A stretch of DNA of 64,000 bases. Origin: Minisyncoccota bacterium. GTDB lineage: Bacteria; Patescibacteriota; Minisyncoccia; JAHIHE01; JAGLIN01. Each line of letters begins with the position of its first letter. The stretch's first letter is position 1. Under the pieces are notes generated by a model, which did not search any database, was not told the origin of the DNA, and saw only the letters and a program-made list of their open reading frames with translations. The position numbers and the translations under genes are program-made. Shown here one piece after another: positions 894 to 59,309 of the stretch. The DNA is taken from assembly GCA_023142595.1 (NCBI GenBank), contig JAGLJF010000003.1, forward strand, positions 3,873 through 67,872. Direction: 5' to 3'.

Positions 894-2204
894 TTATCCT
901 CCAAGCCTTCTGACTTTTTTCAAAACCTGATATATATCATAACCAAATTTATCAATTGCCAAATCATAAGCGCCGATATAGCTTTTTTCTTCTCCTCCAA
1001 AACCTTTTTTGAATTTTGTAATTCCACGCCAAGTCTCCTTTTCTCCGTCAATTGTAATTCCCCAAAAATCATATTTTTTATATCTTGCATTTTTCGCATC
1101 TTGAATTTGTTTCCATTGCAAAAGATATGGCGCCATTAGATTTCTATGCTCATTAGACGATGCTCCATGAAGATAGATCGTCAAATCCCCAAAACACAAA
1201 ACGATATTAGCTGCAATAATTTTTTCCTCATATTCAGCAAGATATAATTTGGCAATTAAATTATAATTATTAATATATGCGCTGTCATTCTGAACTTGAT
1301 TCAGAATCTTTTTTGTATCGCCACTATTTCTTTTAATATTCCCCATGCCTTGTTTTGCGAATTGAAAATTAGATAAACCATCATCACGAACAGATTCTGA
1401 AATGAATTCAGAATGACAATTTGAATCTGTTTTACCGCAAAAACTCAAGTTTTTCAACATCTCCTGATAATAATTTTTATTATGAGAAATAATTTTATTC
1501 CGCTCTGAAGTTTCTTTCGTTAATTCCCAAAAAAATTCAAATTTTTTTCGAAACTCTTCCTGATTTATATCTCCTGATTTATATCTCCTGATCTGCACTC
1601 CCCTTTTTTCAGCCAATCGAATATTATAACGAGTTTTCTGTTTCATTTCTTTCAATAAATCTTCTTCTGATTTTTCAAGATTTAATATTAAAGTATCTTT
1701 TGGCTGAATTTCAGACGGTGATTTTTTTAAATTAGTAAAATGTTCATAATTCTTATGCTGGCTCCATAGTCCCTTTAGGGCTGTGAAGCCTGTTTGCAAA
1801 AGTCTTGCATTTGGGTTCCACAGCCCTTCGGGACTATGGAACCAGCGAGAAATCGGCGGATCAATTCTCAAAAATATACTTTTTTCTTTTCTGACAATTT
1901 TTTTAATTTCAACAAACAAGAAATCATAAACGCTTGATATTTGAGAATTAACGATTGTAATATTTATCACAGGACCACGCGGACAATATAAATAACTTTT
2001 TCCAAACGGAAGATTATGCTTTATTAAAAGAGCTACAGCCACCAACTTATCTTCATCTTTAACCCCAATTCTAAATATTTTTCTTCCTATAACTTTTTGA
2101 AATTCTCCCCACTGCCAAGACTGCAAAAAACTTTCTGAACTGTTGAAAACTATAAATTTATTCCAGTCCTCTTTTTGATTTTCTCCTATTTCAATTATTT
2201 TCAT
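894..2204 (-). CDS. FemAB-family peptidoglycan interpeptide bridge peptidyltransferase (MurM/FemX-like)
   Basis: Family-like N-terminus (WQW...YCPRGPV) and C-terminal region (FKKGFGGEE). Carries an in-frame palindromic element (see repeat 1761..1843). Confidence 0.55.
   Translation of the reverse strand: MKIIEIGENQKEDWNKFIVFNSSESFLQSWQWGEFQKVIGRKIFRIGVKDEDKLVAVALLIKHNLPFGKSYLYCPRGPVINITIVNSQISSVYDFLFVEIKKIVRKEKSIFLRIDPPISRWFHSPEGLWNPNARLLQTGFTALKGLWSQHKNYEHFTNLKKSPSEIQPKDTLILNLEKSEEDLLKEMKQKTRYNIRLAEKRGVQIRRYKSGDINQEEFRKKFEFFWELTKETSERNKIISHNKNYYQEMLKNLSFCGKTDSNCHSEFISESVRDDGLSNFQFAKQGMGNIKRNSGDTKKILNQVQNDSAYINNYNLIAKLYLAEYEEKIIAANIVLCFGDLTIYLHGASSNEHRNLMAPYLLQWKQIQDAKNARYKKYDFWGITIDGEKETWRGITKFKKGFGGEEKSYIGAYDLAIDKFGYDIYQVLKKVRRLGG
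1761..1843. repeat. ~83-bp compound palindromic element (CCATAGTCCC..GGGCTGTG / CACAGCCC..GGGACTATGG) inserted in-frame in the FemAB gene
   Basis: Two half-sites are reverse complements of each other. Solo half copies occur at 42444-42478 and 42855-42888. The insertion encodes ~WFHSPEGLWNPNARLLQTGFTALKGLWSQ. Confidence 0.7.
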
Positions 2205-2477: not shown

Positions 2478-3014
2478 TTAATCATCTTCTTTAATTGTAA
2501 AATCATAAATCGAATATCTTTCAAAACAATCACTCATCCATTCTTCACCTTTTTCTTTAATTATTCTGCTATAACTACAAAATTTACAATTCAAAACTTC
2601 TTCCTGCTTATTAACATATTTATGTTTTACCAAATTATGATGAATATAATTCAAATGCAATAGAAAATCTTTTTCATCTCGAAGACAATAATCCCAATAT
2701 TGATACCATACTTTTCTGCCTTTTTTGTTTGACATTTTATTCAACTCTTTCGAAGAGAGCGCGTGAAAATCTTTAATGAGATATTTTAAATCATTTCCCT
2801 TGTTCGTTTTAATTATAATATGATAATGATTATCTAAAATCACAAAAGCATAAAGCAAGTATTTATATCTTTCAAGAACATTGTTTAAAGTCTTTATAAT
2901 CACTTTCTTTTTGTCCTCAGTGTTAAAAATTTTTACACTTTTAACAGTTCTTGCTGAAATAAAATAAAATGTATTATCTTGATAAATATGTAAAGGGCTG
3001 TGCTTTTTATACAT
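2478..3014 (-). mobile_element. REP-associated tyrosine transposase (RAYT, IS200/IS605-like HuH Y1 transposase)
   Basis: HuH motif NHYHIII. C-terminal tyrosine region VWYQYWDYCLRDEKDFLLHLNYIHHNLVKH. Flanked by cognate REP hairpins. Confidence 0.7.
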
Positions 3015-3146: not shown

Positions 3147-4211
3147 TTATCTCAATTTCAAATTCGCATCTGCCTTTACGCTTTTCCAATTCTTAATCCC
3201 TTTATTTTTCTCAACATATTTATAAGCCGCAATGGCAATCATCAAAGCATTGTCTGATGTTAATTTTGACGTTGGGAAAGAAAAACCGCAAAGAGGTAAA
3301 TCTGATTTTATCGCTTCGGCTAATACTTTTTGCAATTTTTTATTTGCTGAAACCCCTCCTCCTAAAACAATGTTTTTTACTTTATGTTTTTGTGCCGCTT
3401 TGATGGTTTTAGAAACAAGCACATCAAAAGCCGCCTTCTGAAAAGATGCTACAACGTCTTGTTTATATTGGTCATTATAGAGACGCATAGATGCTGCATC
3501 TCTACAGCTTTGAACCTCATATAAAACCGCAGTTTTCAACCCTGAAAAAGAAAAATTATAATCGCCACTATTCATCATCGGTCGCGGAAATTTTATTTTT
3601 TCTTCATCTCCCTGTTTTGCCATTTTTTCAATAATAGGTCCCCCAGGATAACCGAGTTCCAAAAGCTTGGCAACCTTGTCAAAAGCTTCTCCCACCGCAT
3701 CATCCAAAGTTTCTCCAAGAACTTTATAATTCAAATCCTTTTTCATAAGAATGATTTGAGTGTGTCCACCAGAAACTGTCAGACAAAGAATCGGAAATTC
3801 TGCTTCCCATAATTTATTATTTTTTGCATCAGATTTCTTAAGCCAATTTGCATAAATATGTCCTTCAATGTGATGAATTCCAATTAATGGTTTCCCCAAA
3901 CCATAAGCAAGAGCTTTGGCAGCTCCAACACCAACCATCAAAGCAGGAATCAATCCAGGACCATTCGTCACGGCAACATAATCAATTTTTTTCTTGCTTA
4001 TTTTTGCATTACGAAAAGCTCTTTCCAAAATTGAAGTAATGTTTTTTAAATGCATTCTTGAAGCCAAAGACGGAACAACTCCACCAAATTTACTATGCAT
4101 TTTGACTTGAGAAGAAACTATATTTGCCAAAACCTTAGCACCTCCATTTTTAAATTCAACAATAGCAACCGCTGTTTCATCACAAGAAGTTTCAATCGAC
4201 AAAATAATCAT
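3147..4211 (-). CDS. tsaD: tRNA N6-adenosine threonylcarbamoyltransferase TsaD (Kae1/YgjD family)
   Basis: MIILSIETSCDETAVAIV start. HxxH metal site (GIHHIEGHIY). Full-length family similarity. Confidence 0.85.
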   Translation of the reverse strand: MIILSIETSCDETAVAIVEFKNGGAKVLANIVSSQVKMHSKFGGVVPSLASRMHLKNITSILERAFRNAKISKKKIDYVAVTNGPGLIPALMVGVGAAKALAYGLGKPLIGIHHIEGHIYANWLKKSDAKNNKLWEAEFPILCLTVSGGHTQIILMKKDLNYKVLGETLDDAVGEAFDKVAKLLELGYPGGPIIEKMAKQGDEEKIKFPRPMMNSGDYNFSFSGLKTAVLYEVQSCRDAASMRLYNDQYKQDVVASFQKAAFDVLVSKTIKAAQKHKVKNIVLGGGVSANKKLQKVLAEAIKSDLPLCGFSFPTSKLTSDNALMIAIAAYKYVEKNKGIKNWKSVKADANLKLR

Positions 4212-4366: not shown

Positions 4367-7012
4367 ATGATAAATCCAAATAAATTTACCACAAAATCAC
4401 AAGAAGCGATTGCTTCTGCGCATTCAATCGCATCTGAACATAATCAACAACAAGTTGACGCACTTCATCTTCTTCTTGCTCTTTTAACTCAAGAAGGTGG
4501 AGTTGTTCTATCAATTCTCAATAAGCTTGATGTACAGATAAATTTTATACAAGCCGAAATTGAAACTGGAATTGGAAATATTGAAAAAATTCAATCACCA
4601 CCTAAAGCAACAGGACAAGTATATCTCACTCCCTATCTTGGACAAATTCTTGAAAATTCACAAAAAGAAGCAGAGAAGCTTAAGGATGATTTTATCAGTA
4701 CAGAACATATTTTACTTTCCATGACTGAAACTAATGGTAATGTAAAAAATATTCTTGAAAAATTTAGCGTCACTTATGAAAATATTTTGAAAGTTCTTGT
4801 TGATGTCAGGGGCTCTCAAAGAGTGTCGGACAGCGAGCCTGAAAGTAAGTTTCAAGTTCTTGAAAAATATGCTCAAAATCTGACGAAACTCGCTAAAGAG
4901 GAAAAGCTTGATCCTGTTATCGGCAGAGATGAAGAAATCCGAAGGGTAATGCAAGTGATTTCCAGAAGAACAAAGAATAATCCAGTTCTAATTGGTGAAG
5001 CTGGAACTGGAAAAACCGCCATCGTCGAAGGACTAGCTCAAAGAATTGTAGCAGGTGATGTTCCTGAATCGTTAAAAAACAAAGATTTAATTGCTCTTGA
5101 TTTGGGCTCTTTGATTGCAGGCACAAAATTTAGAGGTGAGTTTGAAGAAAGACTAAAAGCAGTTCTCAAAGAAGTTGAACAATCCACGGGAAAAATAATT
5201 CTTTTTATTGATGAGCTTCATACCCTAGTTGGAGCTGGCGCTTCGGAAGGTTCAATGGACGCTTCTAACATGCTCAAACCACTTCTAGCTAGAGGGAAAT
5301 TACACACTATTGGAGCAACAACCCTCAAAGAATACCAAAAATATATTGAAAAAGACGCTGCGCTTGAAAGAAGATTCCAGCCTGTTTATGTAAAAGAACC
5401 AAGTATTGAAGACACCATTTCAATACTCAGAGGAATAAAAGAAAAATACGAAGTCCATCACGGAGTAAGAATTAAAGATTCTGCGCTTGTTAGCGCTGCA
5501 ACTTTATCTTCTCGATATGTTTCTGATAGATTTCTTCCAGACAAAGCCGTTGATTTAATCGACGAAGCGGCATCCTCTCTTCGAATGGAAATTGACAGCA
5601 TGCCAGCAGAACTTGATAAGATGAAAAGAGAAACTCGCAGATTTGAAATTGAAAAGAAAGCGCTCAAAAAAGAAAAGGATAGGGAATCAAAAGAAAGACT
5701 AGAAGAACTCGAAAAAACAATTGCAGATTTGAAAGAACAAAGTAAAGATATTGAAATTCAATGGAAAAATGAAAAAGAGATAATTTCAAAAATTCGAACA
5801 TCAACAAAAGAAATTGAAAAGCTCAGACAAGAAGCTGAGATTGCTGATCGAAACGCGCAACTTCAAAAAGTGGCTGAAATCAGATATGGCAAAATTCCCA
5901 ATCTTGAAAAAAACATCAAAAAAGAAAAGTCAAGACTTCAAAAAATCCAAGGCGAAAGACCAATTTTGAAAGAGGAAGTTGATGACGAAGATATTGCTAA
6001 AGTAGTTTCTCGTTGGACTGGTATTCCAGCGAATAGAATGATGCAAGAAGAATCTCAAAAACTTTCTCATATGGAAGAGGACTTATCTCAAAGAGTTATC
6101 GGACAAAAAAAAGCCATCAAAGTTGTTTCCAATGCAGTAAGAAGAAATCGTGCTGGAATTTCTGAAGAAAACAAACCAATTGGTTCATTTATTTTTATGG
6201 GACCGACTGGAGTTGGTAAAACTGAACTTGCAAAAGCGCTCGCCGAATTTATGTTTGAAAGTGAAGATGCAATTATCAGAATTGACATGAGCGAATATAT
6301 GGAACGCCATGCAGTTGCAAAAATGATTGGCTCCCCTCCTGGATATGTCGGATTTGAAGAAGGAGGACAACTTACTGAGCAAATTCGCAGAAGACCTTAT
6401 AGTGTGATTCTCTTTGATGAAATCGAAAAAGCTCATCCAGATGTTTTTAATATATTCTTGCAAATTTTAGATAATGGAAGGTTAACTGATGCGAAAGGAA
6501 GGGTCGTGAATTTCAAAAACTCAATTATCATTATGACATCGAATATTGGGAATGAAGTCATTGAAGAATATTCATCGCTTGGCTTTGTTAATCGCGATAG
6601 CAAAAAAACTATCGAAGAAAAAGAATTTGAAAATAAAATCAAAGGAGAATTAAAAAATCATTTTAAACCAGAATTTCTGAATCGTATTGACGAAACAGTA
6701 ATTTTCCATTCTCTGTCTAAAAAAGAAATATCTCGAATTGTTGACTTGCAACTTGAAATTGTTTCAAAAAGACTTGCCAAGCAAAATATCAAAATTCAAG
6801 TGACTGACAAAGCAAAAAAATTAATATCAAAAAATGGATATGAACCATCATTCGGCGCAAGACCCCTAAAAAGAGCTATTCAAAATGAAATTCTTGATGA
6901 ATTAGCGCTCCAAATTATTGAAGGAAAAATAAAAGAAGATGACACAATCGTCATTGATGTAAAGAAAGACAAAATTGTTTTCAATAATGAAAAAATTAAT
7001 GAAAAAAAATAA
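4367..7012 (+). CDS. clpB: ATP-dependent chaperone ClpB (two AAA+ modules with middle coiled-coil)
   Basis: Clp N domain. Walker A sites GEAGTGKTA and GPTGVGKTE. Long coiled-coil insertion between NBD1 and NBD2. 881 aa. Confidence 0.9.
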
Positions 7013-7799
7013 TCTTATCATTTTGAAAATCGGTGGATCTGTGATTACTGATAAAAAAAATGATAATAAAAAAATAAACAGAAAAATTCTCAGAAGAATA
7101 TCTCGCGAAATAGCTTGGGCTCAAAAAGAAAAAAACTTTGCGCTCATTATTGTTCATGGCGTTGGACCATTTGGACACAAATTGGCAAAAAAATTTAATC
7201 TCCACAAAGGATATAAAAATAATTTACAGATCAAAGCACTTTCTGAAATCTACGAAAGTCTTCAAAAACTAAACACAGAAATAGGCATCTATCTTAAAAA
7301 AGAAAAGGTAAATACAGTTAGTTTTAAACAATCTTCGGCATGGATGCTCGAAAATAAAAGACTTATCAATGCAGATTTATCAATAATTAAAAAACATTTA
7401 GACTTTGGCATTGTTCCAATTTTACACGGAGATGTTTTAATGGATACAAAACTTGGTTTCAGCGTTCTTTCTGGAGATCAAATCGTTTCCTATTTAGCAA
7501 AAAAATTAACAGCAAAAAAGGTCGTAGTTGGAACAGATGTTGATGGTGTTTTTAACAATGACCCAAAATTAGATAAACACGCCAAGATTATTAAAATGTT
7601 TAATTCTCAGCATAAAGATAAATTATCTCTAGGAGGATCAATTTCTACAGATGTCACTGGTGGAATGAAAGGTAAAATTGATGAGCTAATTGAACTTTCA
7701 AAATTCGGGATTGAATCAGAAATCATAAATATTGCAAAACCAAATATTTTAAAAAAATCCCTCTATGGAAAAAACGGTCTCGGAACAATCATAAAATAA
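6975..7799 (+). CDS. Isopentenyl phosphate kinase (amino-acid kinase fold; archaeal-type mevalonate pathway enzyme)
   Basis: Motifs [37 protein letters not shown] match the IPK family. The annotated start overlaps the clpB end; the true start is probably the M at 6990 or 6999. Confidence 0.65.
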
Positions 7800-9891: not shown

Positions 9892-11163
9892 ATGAATAAT
9901 AACAAAAAAACAACCTTCCTTTCTCTTGGCGCTGAATCTATAGGAAGATTTGCTGTTTATTCTGACGACAGTGTTTTTGTTTCCGAAAATTTTGGCGATT
10001 TACTGAATGAAAATAATTTCAAAAATTATGAGAAAGCCGTTCTAAAACAAATTAAAATAAAGAAGCCTAATGTGATTTTGACAGATTTGCATCCGCTTTA
10101 TGTTTCAACGGTTTTAGGAGAAGAATTATCAAAAAAACTTCAAATTCCACACATCAAAATTCAACATCATCTTGCCCATGTTTTCTCTGCAGTTGGGGAT
10201 AAATTTTGCCATTCTAACCCTAACAATTGTAATTCTGAGATTAATATTTGTCATCCTGAGCTTGTCGAAGGATTTCAGTCCGTTGAGACTACAAGAGATT
10301 CTTCGACTCCGCTCCGCTCCGCTCAGAATGACAGTAATAATTTTAGACTTGATATAAAATACTCTTTACCAAATACTTTCTACGGCATTGCTTCTGATGG
10401 CACGGGTTTAGGTTTTGATGGGAACATCTGTGGTGGAGAGGTTTTTGAATTTAAAAATACAAAATCTATAAAACAGCCTCTGCACCAAGTTCAAAATAGC
10501 AGTATAAAAAGAATTGGCTCGCTTGAAGAACAAACTATGCTTGGCGGAGATTTAGCAGTCAAAGAACCGGCTCGTATGCTCATTAGCATTCTTTCAAAAT
10601 TTCTGCCGAAAGAAAAAACATATGAAAATGTGGAAAAACATTATTCTAAAAACGAATTTGAACTTCTTTATAATCAACTTCAACAAGATTTCAATTGCCA
10701 AACAACAACAAGCACGGGAAGAATTTTAGATGCTGTTTCAGTTTTGCTTGACTTTGCAAAAAACGAACGAAAATCAAAACATGAAGCGACAAAACTTCTT
10801 GAAGAAAAATCTGCTATTCCGTATAAACTTAATCCAAAAATTACATTCGATAAAGATTATAACAGATATATTTTACAAACAACACCTCTTTTTGAATATT
10901 TATTAAAAAACATCAATAAAGATAAAAAAAGGCTTGCCACAACTGCACAATTATATCTTGCTCAAGGGTTTTTGGAAATTATCAATAAAAATTCAAATAA
11001 TCAAAACAGTAAAATCTTTTTCGCTGGCGGAATAGCGAATAATCAAATTATGTCCTCATATCTGGAAAATAATAATGTTTATACATCAAAAAAAATCCCT
11101 CGTGGAGACGAAGGACTTGCATTCGGTCAAATTATATATTATTTGTCTAACTATATAAATTAA
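9892..11163 (+). CDS. HypF C-terminal (Kae1/YgjD-like carbamoyltransferase) domain protein; lacks the acylphosphatase, Zn-finger and YrdC domains of full HypF
   Basis: LGAE..., DLHPLY and QHHLAHVFSA align with the HypF Kae1-like domain. Convergent with hypE, 7 nt apart. Contains an in-frame MITE (10250..10333). Confidence 0.55.
   Translation: MNNNKKTTFLSLGAESIGRFAVYSDDSVFVSENFGDLLNENNFKNYEKAVLKQIKIKKPNVILTDLHPLYVSTVLGEELSKKLQIPHIKIQHHLAHVFSAVGDKFCHSNPNNCNSEINICHPELVEGFQSVETTRDSSTPLRSAQNDSNNFRLDIKYSLPNTFYGIASDGTGLGFDGNICGGEVFEFKNTKSIKQPLHQVQNSSIKRIGSLEEQTMLGGDLAVKEPARMLISILSKFLPKEKTYENVEKHYSKNEFELLYNQLQQDFNCQTTTSTGRILDAVSVLLDFAKNERKSKHEATKLLEEKSAIPYKLNPKITFDKDYNRYILQTTPLFEYLLKNINKDKKRLATTAQLYLAQGFLEIINKNSNNQNSKIFFAGGIANNQIMSSYLENNNVYTSKKIPRGDEGLAFGQIIYYLSNYIN
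10250..10333. repeat. Family-3 MITE (gtcatcctgagcttgtcgaaggat...ctcagaatgaca) inserted in-frame within the hypF-Cterm CDS
   Basis: Same termini as the tandem copies at 58877-59096. Translated as ...ICHPELVEGFQSVETTRDSSTPLRSAQND... Confidence 0.7.
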
Positions 11164-11170
11164 TAAATCC

Positions 11171-12172
11171 CTAACAAATCCTCGGGATCAATTTTCCTTG
11201 TGGCATCTCAATCAGGCGTAAACCACCGATTGAAGTTTTCAAAAATACTCCTTTTCCTTTTTCTACTTCCCCAATAATTTTTGCTTCAGAATTAAACTTC
11301 TGAAGTTTTTTGACAACTTTGTCCGCATCTCTGGAGCTCACGCTCGCAATAAATCTTCCCTCAGACGGAAAGGCAAAAAGATTAATTCCTAAAAGCTCGC
11401 TAATTGCCACTACATCTTTTTTAAACGGTAGATTTTTTTCATCAAGAACAATTTTCACTTTTGATTTTTCAGCAATTTCATTCAAATTTTCTCCCAAACC
11501 TCCTCTCGTTGGATCTTTACAAACATGCAAAAATTTAGCCACACTTTGTACTTCCTTAACAAGTGGCTGACAATCGCTTTTTAATTTTGTTTTATAATTA
11601 AACCTCTCGCTCAAAATCACAGCACCGTGCTCTCCTAAATTTCCTGAAGCAATAATTTTGTCTCCTGGCTTTGCCTCACTATTTGAAATTATTTTTTTTG
11701 CCAGACCGACTCCGGAAGTTGTAATTTCAATTTTATCAATTTTTCCTTTTTCAGTTACTTTTGTATCCCCTGTCACAACTGGAACTTTTGCTTCACGCGA
11801 AACCTTATCAATTGATTTGATGATTTTTTCCAAATCTTTTGCTGGAAATCCTTCTTCGATCACAAAAGAAAGTGAAATTCCAATCGGCACTGCGCCCATT
11901 ACAGAAACATCATTAATCGTCCCACACATCGCAATTTTTCCAATATCACCACCTTTAAAAAATAAAGGGTCAATTATAAAAGCATCGGTCGTGAAAGCTA
12001 ATCTTTGATTTCCCAAATCATAAATCGCCGCATCATCTCCTGTATTTTTCCACTTCCCTGTATATTTCATAATTTTCCGCAAATCCTTGAAAAATTCCCA
12101 AGAAGCTTTTCCACCCGAACCAAGCTCAAGAGAAATTGATGAATTTTTATTGAATGATTTTGATGTTGACAT
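11171..12172 (-). CDS. hypE: Hydrogenase maturation protein HypE (AIR-synthase-related carbamoyl dehydratase)
   Basis: ISLELGSGGKA N-terminus. MCGTINDVSVMGA motif. Diagnostic C-terminal PRIC motif. Confidence 0.8.
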   Translation of the reverse strand: MSTSKSFNKNSSISLELGSGGKASWEFFKDLRKIMKYTGKWKNTGDDAAIYDLGNQRLAFTTDAFIIDPLFFKGGDIGKIAMCGTINDVSVMGAVPIGISLSFVIEEGFPAKDLEKIIKSIDKVSREAKVPVVTGDTKVTEKGKIDKIEITTSGVGLAKKIISNSEAKPGDKIIASGNLGEHGAVILSERFNYKTKLKSDCQPLVKEVQSVAKFLHVCKDPTRGGLGENLNEIAEKSKVKIVLDEKNLPFKKDVVAISELLGINLFAFPSEGRFIASVSSRDADKVVKKLQKFNSEAKIIGEVEKGKGVFLKTSIGGLRLIEMPQGKLIPRIC

Positions 12173-14748: not shown

Positions 14749-14833
14749 TGCCGAGGGAGGGACTCGAACCCTCACGAAGTATAAGTTCAACGGATTTTAA
14801 GTCCGTCGCGTCTACCAATTCCGCCACCCCGGC
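14749..14833 (-). tRNA. tRNA-Leu (anticodon TAA), long variable arm
   Basis: Cloverleaf folded by hand. Anticodon loop CTTAAAA. 3' CCA not encoded. Confidence 0.8.
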
Positions 14834-14857
14834 AAGTTTTATATTGTGTTGTCAATT

Positions 14858-14931
14858 TGGAGGCCTGGGTCGGATTTGAACCGGCGTACACGGTTTTGCA
14901 GACCGCTACCTAACCACTCGGTCACCAGGCC
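14858..14931 (-). tRNA. tRNA-Cys (anticodon GCA), CCA encoded
   Basis: Acceptor GGCCTGG/CCAGGCC. Anticodon loop CTGCAAA. Terminal TCCA. T-stem has one mismatch in my hand fold. Confidence 0.7.
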
Positions 14932-28585: not shown

Positions 28586-29203
28586 ATGTCTCGGCTATAT
28601 AAGAATAAATTCAAAACTGAATCAACGAGATTGAAAAAATGGGACTATTCACAGAATGGTTTTTATTTTGTGACGATTTGCACGAATAATCATCAGTTGT
28701 TTTTTGGTGATGTAAAAAAATCAGAATCAGAACATTGTCCAATTTTTGAAATGAAAAAATCGCCCATTGGCAAAATCGCCGAAAAATATTGGTTAGAAAT
28801 TCCAAAACATTTTTCAAATGTAAAATTAGATGTATTTGTAATTATGCCAAACCATTTACACGGGGTAATTGAAATTTGTGATGATATTGTGATTGATAAA
28901 AATAAACCGTGCAAACATGTAGAGACGCAGCAATGCTGCGTCTCTACAACAACAAATAATGAATCAAAAACATTTTATAGATTAATTCCAAAATCACTGC
29001 CTGTTATTATTCGCTCATTTAAATCAATTTGTACAAAAACAATAAATCAGAAATTTGATGATAGAAATTTTTCCTGGCAATCGAAATACTATGATCATAT
29101 TATTAGAGATGAAAAATCATTAGACGAAATCAGAAAATATATTATTGATAATCCCGCAAAATGGGATTTGGATAAGAATGTTGTTGAGAATTTTTATAAA
29201 TAG
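28586..29203 (+). mobile_element. Second REP-associated tyrosine transposase (RAYT, IS200-like) carrying its own REP hairpin in-frame
   Basis: HuH motif MPNHLHGVIEI. Catalytic tyrosine region WQSKYYDHIIRDEKSLDEIRKYIIDNP. REP-B copies at 28525, 28919 (inside ORF) and 29241. Confidence 0.65.
28919..28947. repeat. REP hairpin family B, copy 2, located in-frame inside the RAYT ORF (encodes HVETQQCCVSTT)
   Basis: Same palindrome. The ORF remains open through it. Confidence 0.7.
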
Positions 29204-32191: not shown

Positions 32192-34492
32192 ATGAACAAA
32201 AAAACAAAAACTTTTCAAAAATTTGCTCTTTTATTTCTCGTTGTTTTAGTTGGAATTAGTTTTCCGCAAAATTATGCTAATGCTGGTGTTGCTGAATTAT
32301 GGGATATAGCGACTGACCCCCTTGGTGTTGGCAAGGCATTGTTAAATATTCTTCAATTGTTAATTTATGGAATAGGACTTCTTCTTCTTGGAATTGTGGC
32401 TATCTTTGTCGAAATTTCTGCTTGGCTTATTGATGTTTTTCTTGACCCCAAAATCTATGTTGGACAACCTGCTACTGCATTTGCTCCTGCTATCCCAGGT
32501 GTTCTAACTTCAAATTCAATTTTAATTGGTTGGACAGTTGTCAGAGATATTTGTAATATGTTTTTTATGTTCTTTCTTCTAATCGTTGCTTTTGGAACAA
32601 TGCTCAGAAGTAAGTCAATAAACATCAAGGCAATTTTGCCAAAAATCATCATTTCTCTATTTTTGATTAATTTCAGTATGGTTTTTGCTTATCTGATCAT
32701 TGACATTAGCCAATTTTTTATGATTGAAATCAGCTCTTGGATGACAGGAGGATTTGCTCTGGCAGCTCAATCTCTTAGTACTATTCCAAACGGATTTAAA
32801 TCAGGTTTTGCTATTTTTGAAAACATTGGTGCCGTGGATACCTTTATGATTGTGAATATCATATTTGCTATTATATTTTCTGTTTGTCTAGTCTTTGTCT
32901 ATCTTTTGCTCGTAGGTTTCTTGCTTATTCGTTTGGTATATTTTGCGGTTCTGATTGTTTTTTCTCCTGTTGCCTTTTTGGGAATTGCTTTTCCAGGTTT
33001 GTCAAAATATTCCTCTCAATGGTGGTCAGAAATTACAAAATGGGCAATTTTTGGTCCAATTTTTATTTTCTTTGTCTATCTTTCAACCACGATGGCAAAC
33101 GAATTAGTTGGAACTGTGTTTGCGGATGTTTCTCCTGCATTTGGCTTTTTTGACAAAATAGCTCTGCTTGTTATCCCAGCTGTAGTCCCGCTTGTAATTT
33201 TGCTAATGGCTCCAAAATATGCATCTGATTCTGGAGTAGCAGGAGCCCAACAACTCGTCGGTGGCAGAGGCGGTCTTGGAAATATTTCAATGGGGTCTTA
33301 TGGTGTGGCGAAATGGGGAGCTGGAAAAACGAAGCAGGCTGGTGCATGGGGTGGCAGAAGAATTGGATATGATTCAAGAAGGATTGGTGATTCAGTTCGT
33401 GGAGGAACAAAAGCATTAGCAGGTAAAATACCTATCAAGCGTGTTAGAGAAAGAATTCAAGGTAAGATAGCGATACAAGAAGTGAATAGAAAGGGCAAAG
33501 ACAGAAAAAATATCGAAGAAAAGAAGTCTGATTTTAAAGAGTTTAATGGCAAAGATGCTATTATTGCAGCAAAGGGAATTGAAGCAAAGAAATTACGAAA
33601 AGGAGAATCGTTAAGCAAGGAAGATGAATCGAAATTTATTGCTCTTATAGAACATGCGGCAGCAAAAGGAGAAAATCTTAGTACTAATTTCTCAGAAGCG
33701 CAACTTGAAATGGCAACCAAACGGGGTGCAGATGTTGATGAAATTGCAAAACATGATCCTGTTGCAGCTGGAACAATGAAACATTCAAAAGATGCTACTA
33801 AATCAGCAGAAGATCATACTGCTGAATATATGCAAGAACACGCTGAATCAGGAGACTGGAAAAAATATAGTGAACACACTAGACGAAATAACTTTGTAGA
33901 TATGGTAGAACATATTGATTCGAAAGATTTGCAAAATCATATCAAAGGTTCAGGTCCAAAAGCAAAGAAGGATTATGAAATTGGTGCTGATCAGATGATG
34001 CAAAAGTTAAAAGAAGAAATTACTGCTAATTTAACTAAAGGAACTCCAGCTGATATTGCGAAGGCTGCAGACTTAGGGAAAGAGCTTCAAAAAGCTCGAA
34101 AGAAAATCAGAAAAGTGACTGGTAATCTTGAAATTTCTGACGCAGAAAGAAATAGTGATGGATATAGAATGAGCGAAGATGCAAGCGGTACAACAACGCC
34201 ATTGGGCCATGGAGAGAAAGCGCCTACTGGTAGTAGTATTCAGTTAAATGCACCACTAATGCAAGAAGCAGTAAAAGTAACTGGAGGAGCTGACTTTAAA
34301 AAACTGACAAGCGAAAGTAAAGTTGCTTATGCGAAACATGCGAACGCAGATAATATTAATAGCTTACGATTGAAAGAGGAGGGTTCAGATGACTTGCAAG
34401 CAGTAGCAGATGAAATAAAGAAACGTCCAACTACCGATCCTGTACATATAGCAGCAGCTTCTCATGAAATATTAGGAAAATATATGACTTAA
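32192..34492 (+). CDS. VirB6/TrbL-like polytopic membrane protein of a type IV secretion-like system, with long K/E-rich hydrophilic C-terminal extension
   Basis: Signal peptide plus about 8 TM helices in the first ~350 aa. Located 1 kb upstream of PrgI-like and VirB4 genes. Confidence 0.4.
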   Translation: MNKKTKTFQKFALLFLVVLVGISFPQNYANAGVAELWDIATDPLGVGKALLNILQLLIYGIGLLLLGIVAIFVEISAWLIDVFLDPKIYVGQPATAFAPAIPGVLTSNSILIGWTVVRDICNMFFMFFLLIVAFGTMLRSKSINIKAILPKIIISLFLINFSMVFAYLIIDISQFFMIEISSWMTGGFALAAQSLSTIPNGFKSGFAIFENIGAVDTFMIVNIIFAIIFSVCLVFVYLLLVGFLLIRLVYFAVLIVFSPVAFLGIAFPGLSKYSSQWWSEITKWAIFGPIFIFFVYLSTTMANELVGTVFADVSPAFGFFDKIALLVIPAVVPLVILLMAPKYASDSGVAGAQQLVGGRGGLGNISMGSYGVAKWGAGKTKQAGAWGGRRIGYDSRRIGDSVRGGTKALAGKIPIKRVRERIQGKIAIQEVNRKGKDRKNIEEKKSDFKEFNGKDAIIAAKGIEAKKLRKGESLSKEDESKFIALIEHAAAKGENLSTNFSEAQLEMATKRGADVDEIAKHDPVAAGTMKHSKDATKSAEDHTAEYMQEHAESGDWKKYSEHTRRNNFVDMVEHIDSKDLQNHIKGSGPKAKKDYEIGADQMMQKLKEEITANLTKGTPADIAKAADLGKELQKARKKIRKVTGNLEISDAERNSDGYRMSEDASGTTTPLGHGEKAPTGSSIQLNAPLMQEAVKVTGGADFKKLTSESKVAYAKHANADNINSLRLKEEGSDDLQAVADEIKKRPTTDPVHIAAASHEILGKYMT

Positions 34493-34504
34493 AAAATTTA
34501 TTTT

Positions 34505-35329
34505 ATGTATAATATTAAGATAATGAGTGAAGAAAAAAACGAAAAAGATAAAAAAAATGATGAGATGATGCGAAAAGTCAGGCTTTTGCCAGATTTTGTT
34601 TATGATGCATTACTGATAAATGAGGGAATTTCAGCAAATTCAGAAATTATTGAAAAGTATGAATTAAATGATGAACAAAAAGACAAAATGTTAGATTTGA
34701 ATTTGAATATTATTTTCAAAGAACTTGCAATTGAAAATTTGTCTGATTCTATTGAACAAAATTTGAAAGTGAACAAAGAAACAGCTTCACAAATTACGCT
34801 TGATCTCTTTTTGAAGAAATTTTATCTAGCAGCCAGTTATTTTCCTGGAATTGAGGATGAGATTTTGAGACTTGGTGGGGAAATACCGAAGGAGAAGCCG
34901 AAAAAATTAGGGGAGCAACTTTTGAAAAGAGAAGAAGAGATGGATAGGATAAAAGAAGAAGAAAAACGAGCAGAAGCCGAAAGAATGGCGGATACGATTA
35001 TTTCAAAATCTGTTGATGAGTTATTGAAAGAATTTCCAATTGTTGGAAATCAACAAATTGGTTCTCAAGAATCAATCACCCTTAAAACAAAACCTGAACC
35101 AATGAAGCCGTTGATAAAATACTGGCTAGAAGATTACAAAGAAAAAATGGGTTATTACAATCATTCAAATATCGAAAGAGTTCAATATGTCTATCACGAC
35201 AAAAACACAAAAAATATGAATGAAGAAGAAAGAAGGCAGTTAAATTTGATTTTAAAATCAGCCGACGAAAAAATCCCCCTCCCATATTCCACAAAAAGCA
35301 AGAAAATTGATTTTTCAAGAATTGAATAA
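34505..35329 (+). CDS. Hypothetical soluble acidic/coiled-coil protein within T4SS-like locus
   Basis: No recognisable motifs. Co-directional, 12-nt gap from the VirB6-like gene. Confidence 0.3.
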   Translation: MYNIKIMSEEKNEKDKKNDEMMRKVRLLPDFVYDALLINEGISANSEIIEKYELNDEQKDKMLDLNLNIIFKELAIENLSDSIEQNLKVNKETASQITLDLFLKKFYLAASYFPGIEDEILRLGGEIPKEKPKKLGEQLLKREEEMDRIKEEEKRAEAERMADTIISKSVDELLKEFPIVGNQQIGSQESITLKTKPEPMKPLIKYWLEDYKEKMGYYNHSNIERVQYVYHDKNTKNMNEEERRQLNLILKSADEKIPLPYSTKSKKIDFSRIE

Positions 35330-35451
35330 ATTTTTAACCTGTCGTAAAGTAAATCATTCGTCTCTAAGAGCCTCTTAAAGGCTCTTAGAGACTGAAGCTA
35401 TCTTACAGCGGGGACAAATAAAACTCAATGATAATCACCTAACAACAACCC

Positions 35452-35895
35452 ATGCAATATAGTGTTCCTCAATTTTTAAACATTGAAGATAAAATTGTTG
35501 GTCCGTTCACGGGCAAACAAGTTCTTTTTCTGATTATGGGATTCGGAGTTCTACTGATTTCTTTTACTTTTTTTAATATGGCATTTTTTGCAATCATTGC
35601 TATTCTGGTTATTCCAATCACCTTAGCTTTTGCTTTTTGGAAACCAAAAGGAATGACAGTTTCACGCCTAATAACAAATATGATCAATTTTCATACCACC
35701 TCTCATCTTTATGTTTGGAGAAGAGAACCAAATCTGAGGATGTATAAAATGACTCAAAGAAAAGTAGCTAAAGATAGCATTGGAGAGAAAAAAGTTTCCA
35801 AAAGAAGAATCAGAGAATTAGCATGGCTGCTTGATACAAGTACTTCTATAGACACTCCTTTCGAAGCAAAAACAAGACCCGATGAGAATATTTAA
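35452..35895 (+). CDS. PrgI-family (VirB3-like) T4SS membrane protein
   Basis: N-terminus MQYSVPQFLNIEDKIVGPFTGKQVLFLIMG followed by two TM helices matches the PrgI/VirB3 pattern. Confidence 0.55.
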   Translation: MQYSVPQFLNIEDKIVGPFTGKQVLFLIMGFGVLLISFTFFNMAFFAIIAILVIPITLAFAFWKPKGMTVSRLITNMINFHTTSHLYVWRREPNLRMYKMTQRKVAKDSIGEKKVSKRRIRELAWLLDTSTSIDTPFEAKTRPDENI

Positions 35896-35985
35896 GCAAA
35901 TTGTTGAATTAAATGTATAAAAAATCTTCTTTATCTTTTTATAAAAATTACGAATAAAAAACTAACAATTTAACAATCTAATTAT

Positions 35986-36657
35986 ATGTCTACACCAGAT
36001 AAACAAAAGAAAAAAGGCTTAAGCACGCAAAAATATCTTGAAATTGCTGAAATAAAAGATGGCGTTGTTATTATGAAAAATGGAAGCATGAGAGCTGTCC
36101 TTATGGTTTCATCAATTAATTTTGCTTTAAAATCAATTGATGAACAAGACGCAACGATTTATCATTTTCAAAGTTTTTTAAATTCTCTTGATTTTTCAAT
36201 CCAAATTGTCGTAAATTCTCGAACCTTGAATCTTGATAATTATTTGCAAATTCTCAAAGATAACGAGAAAAGACAAATGAATGAACTTCTTCGCATGCAA
36301 ACGGCAAGCTACATTGAATATATTCAAGGGCTGGTGAAAATGGCAAATATTGTCAATAAAACATTTTATATAGTTGTTCCATTTTCAGTCTCAGAGTCAA
36401 AAGGAGGCACCATGAAAGCTTTAAAGGGGTCAATAAGTGCTCAAAAACTGATTTCTAACAGAGCTACATTCGAAAAATACAAAGATCAACTTTTTCAAAG
36501 AGTTGATCATGTTGTAGGAAATTTAGGTGGTTCAGGGCTAAAGATGACAATGTTGAATACACAAGAATTAATCGAGCTTTATTATAATTTATATAATCCA
36601 GAAAGTTCTGAAAAGAAAGCCTTGGCAGACATTGAAGACCTTGATTTGGCAATGTAA
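35986..36657 (+). CDS. VirB4/TrbE-family ATPase, N-terminal segment (split gene or pseudogene part 1)
   Basis: YLEIAEIKDGVVIMKNGSMRAVLMVSSINFALKSIDEQDATIYHFQSFLNSLDFSIQIVV matches the conserved VirB4/TrbE N-terminus (dgvv.tkdGsl.a.f.v.G..fe...). Stop, then 37 nt, then the next ORF. Confidence 0.55.
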   Translation: MSTPDKQKKKGLSTQKYLEIAEIKDGVVIMKNGSMRAVLMVSSINFALKSIDEQDATIYHFQSFLNSLDFSIQIVVNSRTLNLDNYLQILKDNEKRQMNELLRMQTASYIEYIQGLVKMANIVNKTFYIVVPFSVSESKGGTMKALKGSISAQKLISNRATFEKYKDQLFQRVDHVVGNLGGSGLKMTMLNTQELIELYYNLYNPESSEKKALADIEDLDLAM

Positions 36658-36696
36658 AAAATTTCTCTATACAAAGTAATTAATAATAAATTATAT

Positions 36697-38517: not shown

Positions 38518-39272
38518 ACCTGAACTCTTATTATTTGTCATTCTGAATTCATTTCAGAATCTTAGTTAAATTAGATTTGAATCTATACTTTTTTACATAA
38601 TACTTTTATTTATAAAAAACATATATATTCTATAAATATCATACAGGTGCTAGTATATTCATCTGTCATCTCAGAATTTATTCCGAAACGATAGTGCAGG
38701 AATAAATGTCTGAGATCCAGTTTGTTTCGTTTATTAGAATCATTGTATAAACCGTTTTTGCATCATTAATTATTTTCTTTTCTTATAAAACCTTACAAAA
38801 TATATTATTTATTGAGACTTACTGGATTCCAGATAAATTTTTCTTTTGACTCTTAATTGTTAGATTGTCCAGCGTTGTATATACTTTTATAATTACCATT
38901 AGTATCAATTGTCATCCTCAGCTTGACTGAGGATCCAGAATAGACTGAGATAAATTTTAATTTAGGCTTGATACAGCCAAAAGATAATAATCCTAGATTC
39001 CCGCAGGAGTTTATGCTGAATTAATTTCAGTGCGGGAATGACAAATAAGTTTAATGTAATGTATATAACTATTTTTAAAAAGTATAGGAAGCGCTGAAAA
39101 ATCTTACATATTAATAGTAAAATTTTCTGAAATGACAATATTTTGCCACTAAATTAATAAACATTTATACTATAAATGGTTTATTAATTCACTGACGTAA
39201 TTTTATCAACAAATTAAGTACCATTTATAAAAATAGCAACCCAAAGATATTATATAAAAGCAAAAGAGCAAT

Positions 39273-44811: not shown

Positions 44812-44983
44812 TTATTTGTTTTAAAAACATTAAAATCATAACCAACGACAGATTCTGAACTAAATTCAGAATGACAAAAAGTTTGTTTCATTTTCGAAAA
44901 GATTATTTGTCATTCTTAGGTTCTAAACTCAACCACACCTGTCATCCTGAACTAACCCAATGTCATCCTGAGCCAAACCCCTG

Positions 44984-57764: not shown

Positions 57765-58829
57765 TTATAAATATTTAGCTTCAATACCACAAGCTCCTTC
57801 AGAAGAAACCATGCAGGCACCAATTGGATTCTCAGAAGTGCATTTTTTGTTAAACAGCTTGCAATCTTTTGGCTGCTTGAGCCCACGAAGAATGGCCCCA
57901 CAAATACATCCAGTGCTCTCAAGAGATTCTTCGACAAGTTCAGAATGACAAGATAAAATATTTTTATATTTTACCTTCGCATCATACTTTGAATATTTTT
58001 CTCTAATTTTTAAACCTGAATTAGGAATATTTCCAAGTCCTCGCCAAAATGCATCTCCATTTTCAAAAACTTCATCAACTAATTTTCTGGCGACAGGATT
58101 TCCTTCTGGACGAACACATCTGGTATATTCATTTTCAACTTCTTCTCTTCTCTCTGCAATCTGTTTCAAAAGCATATAAATTCCAAGCAAAACATCTTCT
58201 CCGCTAAAACCAGTAATAACCTGAGAAAGTTTGAATTTTTGATATAGTTCTGTTCCAATGATAGCTGAAACATGTCCAGGATTCAAGAAGCCGTCAATTT
58301 TCAAAGTTGGAGTATCAACCAATACTTGCATCGCTGGAATAAAAAGTTTGTGAGATGAATAAACAGTCAAGCCTTTTTTAATTGCATCTGCCGTCATTGG
58401 AGTTGTTGTTTCAAATCCCAGTCCAAAAAAAACTAAATCCTTTTTTTCTTTTTGTAATTTTAAAGCATCTTCAGTTGAATAAACTTCATTAACATCAGCA
58501 CCAAGTTCGCGCGCTTTATTGAGAGATAATTTTTGTTTTTGTTTATCAGCTTTTAAAACTAAATTTCCTGGCACTCTGAGAACATCTCCATAACAAGCAA
58601 TTGGAACATCATTTAAAGCTAATTTAATTATTGCATCAACATCTTTTTGGTCTGTCACACAAACTGGACACCCAGGTCCCGAAAGAAGCTTCACATTTTT
58701 CGGCAAAATCTTCTTGATACCGTTTTTTGCAACAGCTTCAGTATGCGTCCCACAAAGCTCCATAATCACAACATCGCGATTAATTTCTTTTGCAAGAATT
58801 TCAATTTTTTTTATTATATTTAATGTCAT
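57765..58829 (-). CDS. hypD: Hydrogenase maturation factor HypD
   Basis: Diagnostic motifs CGTHTE (CGxH), GPGCPVCV, C-terminal CxxC...CxxC. Contains a 28-bp MITE right-end fragment in-frame (57923..57950). Confidence 0.8.
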   Translation of the reverse strand: MTLNIIKKIEILAKEINRDVVIMELCGTHTEAVAKNGIKKILPKNVKLLSGPGCPVCVTDQKDVDAIIKLALNDVPIACYGDVLRVPGNLVLKADKQKQKLSLNKARELGADVNEVYSTEDALKLQKEKKDLVFFGLGFETTTPMTADAIKKGLTVYSSHKLFIPAMQVLVDTPTLKIDGFLNPGHVSAIIGTELYQKFKLSQVITGFSGEDVLLGIYMLLKQIAERREEVENEYTRCVRPEGNPVARKLVDEVFENGDAFWRGLGNIPNSGLKIREKYSKYDAKVKYKNILSCHSELVEESLESTGCICGAILRGLKQPKDCKLFNKKCTSENPIGACMVSSEGACGIEAKYL

Positions 58830-58876: not shown

Positions 58877-59096
58877 TGTCATCCTGAGTGAAACGAAGGA
58901 TCCCGTTATTAGTTTCATGAGGTGTTTTATAACGACTTGATGTACATAATCTCGGGATTCTTTACTACTATTCAGAATAACTGGATACACTATCATTCTG
59001 GGCTTGTCGAAGGATTCCACTGTTAGTTTTGTATAATATTTTATGACGATTTGATGTGCATAGTCGCGAGATTCTTCACTACCGTTCAGAATGACA
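58877..59096. mobile_element. Two tandem family-3 MITEs (~105 bp each; GTCATyCTGAGyG...GAAGGATyCC ... GGGATTCTT...TTCAGAATGACA) between hypD and hypC
   Basis: Copy 1 58877-58982, copy 2 58992-59096. Same family as the in-frame copy in hypF-Cterm and the partial copies at ~40370-40430. Confidence 0.7.
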
Positions 59097-59099
59097 ATA

Positions 59100-59309
59100 T
59101 TATTTCCCCTCCAACAAATCAGAAATTTCCTTTGCATCTTTGCTTGTTAATTTTTGAATTGCGAAACCAGCATGCACAATCGCATAATCCCCTTTTTTCA
59201 CATCAACTAAAGAAACATTCACCTCTCGTTCAATCCCGTCAAAATCAACCAACGCAACGTTGGTTTTTTTATCAACCGATTTTATTCTCCCCGGAATTGC
59301 TAAACACAT
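59100..59309 (-). CDS. hypC: Hydrogenase maturation factor HypC (HupF/HybG family)
   Basis: Starts MCLAIPGRI (canonical MC(L/I)(A/G)(I/V)P). 69 aa. Confidence 0.75.
   Translation of the reverse strand: MCLAIPGRIKSVDKKTNVALVDFDGIEREVNVSLVDVKKGDYAIVHAGFAIQKLTSKDAKEISDLLEGK

What the first reader, a model, noticed from the sequence alone, without database searches (positions are those of the whole stretch)
9892..12172. Incomplete, scattered [NiFe]-hydrogenase maturation set with a truncated HypF
hypE (C-terminal PRIC) and a convergent ORF equal to only the Kae1-like C-terminal domain of HypF are at 9.9-12.2 kb. hypD (GPGCPVC) and hypC (MCLAIP) are 46 kb away at 57.8-59.3 kb. No hypA/hypB or hydrogenase structural genes occur in the window, and HypF lacks its acylphosphatase/Zn-finger/YrdC carbamoyl-adenylate-forming half. 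Either the N-terminal half is encoded elsewhere (split HypF), or the system is degenerate, or HypCDE plus the Kae1-like domain are used for a different cyanation/carbamoyl-transfer chemistry.
Basis: partly seen in the sequence, partly recalled or inferred. Interest (0 to 1): 0.55.

Follow-up and report, generated by a model that had tools for sequence, protein, structure and literature searches.

The report
Single-domain HypF with HypCDE, Patescibacteria
These are four intact hydrogenase-maturation genes of a tiny-genome (CPR/Patescibacteria) bacterium, and the "truncated" HypF is the normal single-domain form used by a large branch of that lineage, so the finding is real but largely ordinary.

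Summary
A 423-aa ORF holds only the Kae1-like domain of HypF. It lies tail-to-tail with hypE. hypD and hypC lie 46 kb away. No hypA, hypB, hydrogenase subunit or HypF N-terminal half occurs in the window, or in the 82 kb of its scaffold that I could see.

The interpretation needs correcting. The short HypF is not a broken gene. It belongs to a large Patescibacteria clade of 360-511 aa single-domain HypFs. In relatives this gene sits inside complete group-3b-type [NiFe]-hydrogenase loci, in the same slot that a full-length five-domain HypF occupies in other Patescibacteria.

All four genes are under strong purifying selection (dN/dS 0.035-0.30), so degeneration is rejected. A profile of the missing N-terminal half found nothing near the gene in 80+ species, so a nearby split gene is unsupported.

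The scattering is a lineage-specific rearrangement. Close relatives keep hypF/E/D/C together. Cupriavidus necator HypF1 is an independent, published precedent for this architecture.

Two questions stay open: whether this genome carries a hydrogenase elsewhere, and what supplies carbamoyl-adenylate.

The parts
9892..11163 (+). hypF-C: stand-alone Kae1-like carbamoyltransferase domain of HypF (423 aa)
   Evidence: It matches PF17788 and PF22521 only. It aligns to residues 401-755 of T. kodakarensis HypF 4G9I, with the HHxAH, DGTGxGxDG and PRGDxG motifs conserved. The AF2 model has pTM 0.80, and the best folds are HypF 3VTI, 3VTH, 3TSQ and 4G9I at TMq 0.71-0.73, against 0.45 for Kae1/TsaD. dN/dS is 0.14-0.30.
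10249..10335 (.). 87-nt MITE-like palindromic element inserted in frame between the two HypF-C subdomains. It is the core of the aa 106-161 insertion.
   Evidence: It has terminal inverted repeats TGTCATCCTGAGC...GCTCAGAATGACA and belongs to a family with at least 8 copies in the window. The insertion is absent from shorter homologues, is unaligned to PDB HypFs, and has pLDDT below 50 over residues 108-156.
11171..12172 (-). hypE (carbamoyl dehydratase; C-terminal PRIC)
   Evidence: TIGR02124 scores 353.5 bits, above the 251.6 cut-off. It is 90-96% identical to clade relatives, with dN/dS 0.035-0.05. The tail-to-tail pairing with hypF-C is conserved in 69 of 70 loci.
57765..58829 (-). hypD
   Evidence: TIGR00075 scores 395 bits, above the 193 cut-off. 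All signature motifs are present. dN/dS is 0.08.
58877..59098 (.). two tandem copies of the same MITE-like element filling the hypC-hypD spacer
59100..59309 (-). hypC (N-terminal MCLAIP)
   Evidence: TIGR00074 scores 69.6 bits, above the 48 cut-off. dN/dS is 0.06-0.09.

Best explanation
The four genes are a working, minimal Patescibacteria-type machinery for making the Fe(CN)2CO part of a [NiFe]-hydrogenase active site.

Proposed pathway:
1. [quoted passage not shown]
2. HypE dehydrates it to a thiocyanate, using ATP.
3. The cyanide is passed to iron held by HypC-HypD.
4. The cofactor is inserted into the large subunit of a cytosolic group-3b-type hydrogenase, which in this organism must be encoded outside the visible 82 kb.

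The short HypF is an orthologous derivative of a full-length HypF. It lost its acylphosphatase, zinc-finger and YrdC-like domains in the ancestor of a large Patescibacteria clade. The 46-kb separation of hypCD from hypEF is a later rearrangement in this species' lineage, in a genome rich in small mobile elements.

Shown here: gene identity, intactness, purifying selection, family-wide single-domain architecture, synteny with hydrogenase loci in relatives, and the absence of a nearby N-terminal half.

Inferred: that a hydrogenase is present elsewhere in this genome, and that carbamoyl-adenylate is supplied in trans. The universal YrdC-family t6A enzyme TsaC/Sua5 is the obvious candidate supplier. 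The alternative is that the Kae1-like domain alone makes it.
For: Family: 618 homologues were found. The best 120 are all 360-511 aa (median 388), and all carry PF17788+PF22521 with no N-terminal HypF domain (two also have a PF02543 hit). Every informative organism name among the named hits is a Patescibacteria lineage.

Genome context: 80 GTDB species-representative loci all have the short form. Within about 10 kb, 69 have hypE, 56 hypD, 51 hypC, 44 the small subunit, 39 the large subunit and 31 hypA. The large subunit is present in 24 of the 38 loci that have at least 7 kb upstream. Examples of complete loci are L004 and L006.

Client enzyme: the relatives' large subunit is closest to Pyrococcus sulfhydrogenase I alpha (group 3b, E 2e-62). 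It has RICGICP and ends in DPCISCAVH.

Ancestry: full-length five-domain HypFs of other Patescibacteria are 45-47% identical over the Kae1 domain. They occupy the same slot in a canonical 3b locus: HypA<-LSU<-SSU | ->HypF ... <-HypE<-HypD<-HypC<-gamma<-beta.

Selection: dN/dS is 0.035-0.05 for hypE, 0.08 for hypD, 0.06-0.09 for hypC and 0.14-0.30 for hypF-C.

Rearrangement: close relatives (L009, L012, L020-L023) keep hypF-C/hypE/hypD/hypC contiguous next to the same ClpB-DUF5656-Trypsin_2 genes.

Precedent: C. necator HypF1 (394 aa) has the identical architecture. It is described as comprising one of three domains and 'likely requires carbamoyl adenylate' (PMC9100943).
Against: No hydrogenase, hypA or diaphorase gene is present in 82 kb of this scaffold, nor within 10 kb of the hyp genes in any of the roughly 8 species of the window's own clade. 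So the existence of a client enzyme in this clade is inferred, not seen.

C. necator HypF1 was inactive when tested in E. coli (PMC5350229; PMC9100943). Sufficiency of a Kae1-only HypF is therefore not established biochemically.

No YrdC-type gene is linked to the hyp genes in any locus.
Confidence: 0.7

Rival explanations
1. Orphan Hyp set. The window's clade has lost its [NiFe]-hydrogenase, and HypCDE plus the Kae1-like HypF are retained for another client or for another carbamoyl-, thiocyanate- or cyanide-transfer chemistry.
For: In about 8 species of this clade, both flanks that carry hydrogenase genes in other Patescibacteria are replaced by unrelated genes: ClpB/Trypsin_2 on one side and SOD/TrmB on the other. 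Yet the hyp genes stay under strong purifying selection. Nothing hydrogenase-related lies in 82 kb of this scaffold.
Against: No non-hydrogenase client of HypCDEF is known (established knowledge). At least six other Patescibacteria loci also lack the large and small subunits within 10 kb while carrying the diaphorase genes beside hypCDE, so unlinked arrangements are common. 82 kb is a small part of the genome. The hypC adjacency to ATP-grasp genes is specific to this species.
Confidence: 0.12
2. Split HypF. The acylphosphatase/Zn-finger/YrdC half is encoded as a separate dedicated gene elsewhere in the genome and works in trans with HypF-C.
For: The Kae1-like domain needs carbamoyl-adenylate, which the YrdC-like domain makes in canonical HypF (PMC6022934). 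A partly split hypF is annotated on a Sulfurovum plasmid, as acylphosphatase plus a 595-aa HypF.
Against: The N-terminal-half HMM detects both controls, but its best hit among 9341 ORFs of the window and 98 related loci is E 0.32. That set includes loci holding every other hyp and hydrogenase gene. A dedicated partner would be expected to be linked in at least some of 80 species.
Confidence: 0.1
3. Degenerating remnant. The hyp genes are decaying leftovers of a lost hydrogenase system, and the short HypF is a truncation pseudogene.
For: The genes are scattered, mobile elements are inserted within and between them, and partners are missing from the window.
Against: There are no internal stops. 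dN/dS is 0.035-0.30 at dS around 1 or more. Catalytic motifs are intact. The short form is conserved in hundreds of species and sits in complete hydrogenase loci. The element insertion is in frame and lies in a predicted disordered surface loop.
Confidence: 0.03

Closest known systems
Cupriavidus necator (Ralstonia eutropha) H16 HypF1, 394 aa, megaplasmid pHG1
   Same: The domain architecture is identical, PF17788+PF22521 only. It sits in a hyp operon next to hypC, hypD and hypE. The literature describes it as a truncated HypF with one of three domains that probably needs ready-made carbamoyl-adenylate (PMC9100943, PMC5350229).
   Different: It is only 23-25% identical to the window protein. 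It groups with its own full-length paralogue HypF2 (54% identity), so its truncation is independent. A full-length HypF2 coexists in C. necator, whereas no full-length HypF is seen in any short-form Patescibacteria locus.
Canonical four-domain HypF (E. coli 3TSQ, T. kodakarensis 4G9I, C. subterraneus 3VTH/3VTI)
   Same: The Kae1-like domain has the same fold (TMq 0.71-0.73) and the same HHxAH / Asp motifs. It has the same partner, HypE.
   Different: The window protein lacks the acylphosphatase, Zn-finger and YrdC-like domains. That removes two of the three active sites and the internal channel described for HypF (PMC6022934). It also fails the TIGR00143 cut-off.
Full-length HypF of other Patescibacteria and DPANN archaea in group-3b hydrogenase loci (e.g. 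L110, GCA_042571345.1)
   Same: These are the closest full-length relatives, 45-47% identical over the Kae1 domain. They hold the same syntenic slot: divergent from SSU-LSU-HypA and convergent with hypE-hypD-hypC.
   Different: They have five Pfam domains and are 718-732 aa. Their loci carry the classical 3b beta/gamma subunits, whereas many short-form loci carry NuoE/F/G-like (HoxEFU-like) genes instead.
TsaD/Kae1 (t6A threonylcarbamoyl transferase)
   Same: It is an ASKHA-fold, metal-dependent transferase that takes an acyl-adenylate made by a separate YrdC-family enzyme (TsaC/Sua5). This is the two-protein logic proposed here.
   Different: The structural match is much weaker (TMq about 0.45). 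The genome's own TsaD is a different gene at 3147-4211. Its substrate is tRNA A37, not the HypE cysteine.
TobZ/NodU-type O-carbamoyltransferases
   Same: They use the same Kae1-like plus YrdC-like chemistry via carbamoyl-AMP (PMC6022934, PMC9633730).
   Different: Both domains are fused, in the opposite order, and the acceptors are small-molecule hydroxyl groups. PF02543 hits appear only as a minor extra hit in two family members.

Membership tests
HypF carbamoyltransferase (NCBIfam TIGR00143 equivalog) | N-terminal acylphosphatase domain (PF00708) | tested here: not met
   There is no Pfam hit. The ORF begins at the position equivalent to residue 412-423 of full-length HypFs.
HypF carbamoyltransferase (NCBIfam TIGR00143 equivalog) | Zn-finger (PF07503) and YrdC-like (PF01300) carbamoyl-adenylate-forming domains | tested here: not met
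   Both are absent from the ORF, from the window and from all related loci.
HypF carbamoyltransferase (NCBIfam TIGR00143 equivalog) | Whole-protein score above the curated cut-off | tested here: not met
   The score is 198.3 bits against a cut-off of 466.1.
HypF carbamoyltransferase (NCBIfam TIGR00143 equivalog) | HypF-type Kae1-like domain with an HHxAH motif and conserved Asp ligands | tested here: met
   PF17788 and PF22521 match. IQHHLAHV, DGTGLGFDG and PRGDEG align to the PDB HypFs. H92, H93, H96, D169 and D406 are invariant across 20 family members. The fold match to HypF is better than to Kae1. Assigning these residues as metal ligands rests on my knowledge of the HypF structures.
HypF carbamoyltransferase (NCBIfam TIGR00143 equivalog) | S-carbamoylation of the HypE C-terminal Cys | not testable with these tools
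   This needs biochemistry. The only indirect support is the conserved pairing with hypE in 69 of 70 loci.
Single-domain (Kae1-only) HypF, C. necator HypF1 type | Architecture of PF17788+PF22521 only, about 360-440 aa, encoded with hypC/D/E | tested here: met
   The origin is independent of HypF1.
HypE (TIGR02124) | Score above cut-off, AIRS/AIRS_C domains, C-terminal PR[IV]C | tested here: met
   The score is 353.5 bits against 251.6, both PF00586 and PF02769 match, and the protein ends PRIC.
HypD (TIGR00075) | Score above cut-off; GPGCPVC, GFETT and PGHVS motifs; C-terminal Cys cluster | tested here: met
   The score is 395.4 bits against 192.8. The motifs are visible in the sequence and alignment.
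HypC/HupF (TIGR00074) | Score above cut-off; N-terminal MCxxxP with Cys2 | tested here: met
   The score is 69.6 bits against 48, and the protein starts MCLAIP.
Complete [NiFe]-hydrogenase maturation system in this genome | Presence of a client large and small subunit and of HypA | tested here: inconclusive
   These are absent from the 82 kb of scaffold I could see. The rest of the genome could not be reached. A large-subunit search returned only close Moranbacteria-like hits.

The most novel reading that the evidence does not exclude
In a large branch of Patescibacteria, cyanide-ligand synthesis runs without HypF's acylphosphatase, Zn-finger and YrdC active sites. Either the Kae1-only HypF borrows its adenylate from the t6A enzyme TsaC/Sua5, or it uses another carbamoyl donor. 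In addition, in the window's own clade the Hyp set has been kept under strong selection after physical separation from the hydrogenase, and possibly after its loss. That second point would imply a second client.
Probability: 0.15. Interest if true: 0.65.

Novelty: new member of a known kind. Interest (0 to 1): 0.36.

Why it matters
The textbook HypF mechanism has three steps inside one protein: carbamoyl-phosphate hydrolysis, then adenylation, then transfer through an internal channel. If a Kae1-only HypF is the sole HypF in hundreds of Patescibacteria species that carry apparently functional group-3b-type hydrogenases, that mechanism is not obligatory.

The minimal set seen in these loci (HypA, C, D, E and a 370-aa HypF, with no HypB and no endopeptidase) would also be a compact toolkit for heterologous hydrogenase production.

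It sharpens an open question raised for C. necator HypF1, namely where the carbamoyl-adenylate comes from.

For this particular window, the practical message is about annotation. The gene is a genuine, lineage-typical HypF, not a pseudogene.

Tried and rejected
1. Finding the hydrogenase of this genome. A large-subunit homologue search returned 7642 hits, and the top 120 were all at least 74% identical Moranbacteria-like sequences with no link to this MAG. One candidate with matching source labels came from an unrelated MAG. Walking the 99.8-kb scaffold added 17.9 kb with nothing relevant.

2. Split HypF or a linked TsaC/Sua5. HMM and phmmer searches were negative despite positive controls.

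3. A functional link between hypCD and the upstream ATP-grasp/MATCAP/7TM-transglutaminase cluster. I rejected this because relatives have SOD/TrmB upstream of hypC instead.

4. The conserved AA_kinase neighbour (6975-7799) as a carbamate kinase feeding HypF. By its motifs it looks like an isopentenyl-phosphate-kinase-type protein. That judgement rests on my own reading and was not tested beyond Pfam AA_kinase. The neighbour is conserved only in the window's clade.

5. TsaD at 3147-4211 as a partner. Its adjacency is not conserved in L008 and L009.

6. Promoter and terminator scans around both loci gave counts near or only modestly above shuffled expectation and showed no informative site.

7. 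Literature. No paper in the library combines HypF with Patescibacteria or CPR terms. Jaffe et al. 2020 describe CPR group-3b hydrogenases without mentioning maturation. Shomura & Higuchi 2012 was not held.
Full report
OBSERVATION. The window is 31.6% G+C. Its HypF-like protein is identical to one that NCBI names as from a 'Candidatus Pacebacteria bacterium' MAG. The window is the reverse complement of part of a 99,783-bp ENA scaffold.

The ORF at 9892-11163 (+) is 423 aa. It matches only the two Pfam models of the Kae1-like C-terminal domain of HypF: PF17788 over aa 5-102 and PF22521 over aa 165-413. Against the NCBIfam hypF equivalog it scores 198 bits, below the 466-bit cut-off.

Tail-to-tail with it, 7 bp away, lies hypE at 11171-12172 (-), which scores above cut-off and ends in PRIC. 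hypD (57765-58829, -) and hypC (59100-59309, -) score above their equivalog or subfamily cut-offs and carry their signature motifs.

A Pfam scan of all other ORFs of at least 70 aa found no hydrogenase subunit, HypA, HypB or N-terminal HypF domain. phmmer searches of all six-frame ORFs of at least 30 aa in the window and 17.9 kb of flanking scaffold also found none.

THE SHORT HypF IS A FAMILY, NOT AN ACCIDENT. A homologue search returned 618 proteins. The best 120 are all 360-511 aa (median 388). All have only the two Kae1-like-domain Pfam hits, apart from a minor extra PF02543 hit in two of them. Wherever a source gives an informative organism name, it is a Patescibacteria lineage.

A scan of one genome per GTDB species found 142 relatives. 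The best 80 loci are again Patescibacteria MAGs by neighbourhood, although a few records carry other taxon labels. All of them have the short form.

The protein aligns to residues 401-755 of T. kodakarensis HypF and 399-743 of C. subterraneus HypF. The HHxAH, DG(T/V)GxGxDG and PRGDxG motifs are conserved and invariant within the family. An AlphaFold model (pTM 0.80) matches the HypF crystal structures at TMq 0.71-0.73, against about 0.45 for Kae1/TsaD.

WHAT THE FAMILY IS ASSOCIATED WITH. On long contigs of a Moraniibacteriota MAG and of an unnamed JGI metagenome contig, the gene sits inside a complete hydrogenase locus. The order is NuoE/F/G-like diaphorase genes, hypC, hypD and hypE, then convergent hypF-C, then upstream on the opposite strand the small subunit, large subunit and hypA.

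Across the 80 species loci, many of them on short contigs, neighbours within about 10 kb are:
- hypE in 69
- hypD in 56
- hypC in 51
- the small subunit in 44
- the large subunit in 39
- hypA in 31

The large subunit is present in 24 of the 38 loci that have at least 7 kb upstream. That large subunit is closest to Pyrococcus sulfhydrogenase I alpha (group 3b). It has both CxxC motifs and ends exactly at DPCISCAVH, with no C-terminal extension. No locus has hypB or a maturation endopeptidase. The absence of hypB from the window is therefore normal for this lineage. This fits the published picture of patchily distributed group-3b-related hydrogenases in CPR bacteria (PMC7304191).

ORIGIN OF THE SHORT FORM. 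A search of 1.84 billion cluster representatives found full-length HypFs of about 730 aa that are 39-49% identical to the window protein. Searching with the best of them returned five-domain HypFs named as Patescibacteria, followed by DPANN archaea.

In two such Patescibacteria contigs the full-length gene is divergent from small subunit-large subunit-hypA. In the longer of them it is also convergent with hypE-hypD-hypC and the classical 3b beta/gamma genes. This is the same syntenic slot that hypF-C occupies.

In a neighbour-joining tree of the Kae1 domain, the short Patescibacteria clade is sister to this full-length Patescibacteria+DPANN clade. The simplest reading is loss of the N-terminal three domains in the ancestor of a large Patescibacteria clade.

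C. necator HypF1 (394 aa) has the same architecture but groups with its own HypF2 at 54% identity. It is therefore an independent truncation. A few other short representatives scatter among full-length clades, which hints that this loss recurs. I could not verify that those are complete genes.

NOT DEGENERATE. Against relatives at dS of about 0.3 to more than 2, dN/dS is 0.035-0.05 for hypE, 0.08 for hypD, 0.06-0.09 for hypC and 0.14-0.30 for hypF-C. There are no internal stops.

NOT A LOCALLY SPLIT GENE. I built an HMM of the acylphosphatase+Zn-finger+YrdC half from seven full-length HypFs. It finds C. necator HypF2 (E 1.9e-149) and even E. coli TsaC (E 9e-10). Its best hit among 9341 six-frame ORFs of the window and 98 related loci (1.34 Mb) is E 0.32.

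WHY THE SET IS SCATTERED HERE. In the window's own clade, HypF-C is 58-85% identical between species, and the gene lies beside ClpB, DUF5656 and Trypsin_2 genes. In relatives L009, L012 and L020-L023 it is followed by hypE, hypD and hypC, with small selfish genes (DUF559, GIY-YIG) between them, and then by SOD.

In the window and its 85%-identical sister, hypCD is no longer adjacent to hypE. In the window hypCD now lies 27 bp downstream of an ATP-grasp gene cluster and next to four tRNA genes. The genome carries a MITE-like palindromic element with ends TGTCATYCTGA...TCAGAATGACA. Copies lie inside hypF-C, in frame in a predicted disordered loop, and twice in the hypC-hypD spacer. A half-site lies in the 3' end of hypD, and further copies occur elsewhere. 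So the scatter is a lineage-specific rearrangement.

WHAT REMAINS OPEN. In none of the roughly 8 species of this clade is a hydrogenase gene within 10 kb of the hyp genes, and I could not search the rest of any of those genomes. Long-term purifying selection argues for a client. The default is a hydrogenase encoded elsewhere, because several other Patescibacteria loci also lack linked structural genes.

The source of carbamoyl-adenylate is also unknown. The literature on C. necator HypF1 proposes dependence on pre-formed carbamoyl-adenylate and reports inactivity in E. coli (PMC9100943, PMC5350229). By analogy with the two-protein t6A pathway, TsaC/Sua5 is the obvious candidate. That is inference only.

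VERDICT. This is a real, correctly located observation. Its most interesting interpretation (degenerate, or a novel chemistry) is not supported. It is a lineage-typical single-domain HypF with a published architectural precedent, in a rearranged but selected hyp gene set. Interest is moderate to low. The residual interest lies in the apparently undiscussed, clade-wide loss of HypF's adenylate-forming half.

Noticed in passing
window 1283-1418, 10249-10335, 38911-38934, 40396-40419, 44868-44916, 50082-50248, 57926-57949, 58877-59098: A MITE/REP-like palindromic element family, 87-170 nt, with ends TGTCATYCTGA...TCAGAATGACA. It is inserted in frame in at least two protein-coding genes (femAB-like 894-2204 and hypF-C), where it gives 'CHPELVEG...LRSAQNDS'-type peptide segments. 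Two IS200/Y1-transposase-like (RAYT-like) ORFs at 2478-3014 (-) and 28586-29203 (+) are candidate mobilisers.
   Followed up: partly
window 11163/11171; loci L019-L098: hypF-C and hypE are convergent in 69 of 70 loci. The stop-to-stop distance is at most 30 bp in 35 of them. In 20 species the two 3' ends overlap by exactly 21 nt, which implies overlapping convergent transcripts.
   Followed up: partly
L006:5813-6766 and 12 other loci (for example L035, L042-L044, L057, L064): A Peptidase_M10 (matrixin)-like gene sits between the hydrogenase small and large subunit genes in 13 Patescibacteria loci. These loci lack HypB and any HycI/HoxW-type endopeptidase, and the large subunit has no C-terminal extension to cleave.
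   Followed up: partly
L004:11117-12536: A reverse transcriptase (RVT_1) plus a bAvd-like gene, the hallmark of a diversity-generating retroelement, is inserted between hypF-C and hypE in one Patescibacteria genome.
   Followed up: no
window 45297-45422 (+): Rfam match to LOOT RNA (RF03000), 67.3 bits against a gathering score of 46.4.
   Followed up: no
window 57214-57656 and 14749-14931: A cluster of four tRNA genes lies immediately downstream of hypD, and two more lie near 14.8 kb. These are possible rearrangement landmarks for the hypCD relocation.
   Followed up: no
window 59337-63800 and L013:7816-9952: A gene cluster of 7TM-transglutaminase, ATPgrasp_ST, a MATCAP-like peptidase and three RimK-like ATP-grasp ligases lies directly upstream of hypC. 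It looks like a peptide-modification system, and its adjacency to hypC is specific to this species.
   Followed up: partly
window 32192-41565: A type IV secretion/conjugation-like block: a PrgI-family protein, a VirB4/TraG-type ATPase at 36697-38517, and large membrane proteins without Pfam hits.
   Followed up: no
L004, L006 versus L110: Short-HypF loci pair the 3b-like catalytic subunits with NuoE/F/G-like (HoxEFU-like) diaphorase genes. The full-length-HypF Patescibacteria locus has the classical 3b beta/gamma subunits. HypF truncation and the diaphorase swap may therefore mark the same clade.
   Followed up: no
L100:1282-3523 (Sulfurovum mangrovi plasmid NZ_CP087125.1): hypF is annotated as two adjacent genes, an acylphosphatase (141 aa) and a 595-aa HypF lacking that domain. 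This is either a natural split or a frameshift.
   Followed up: no
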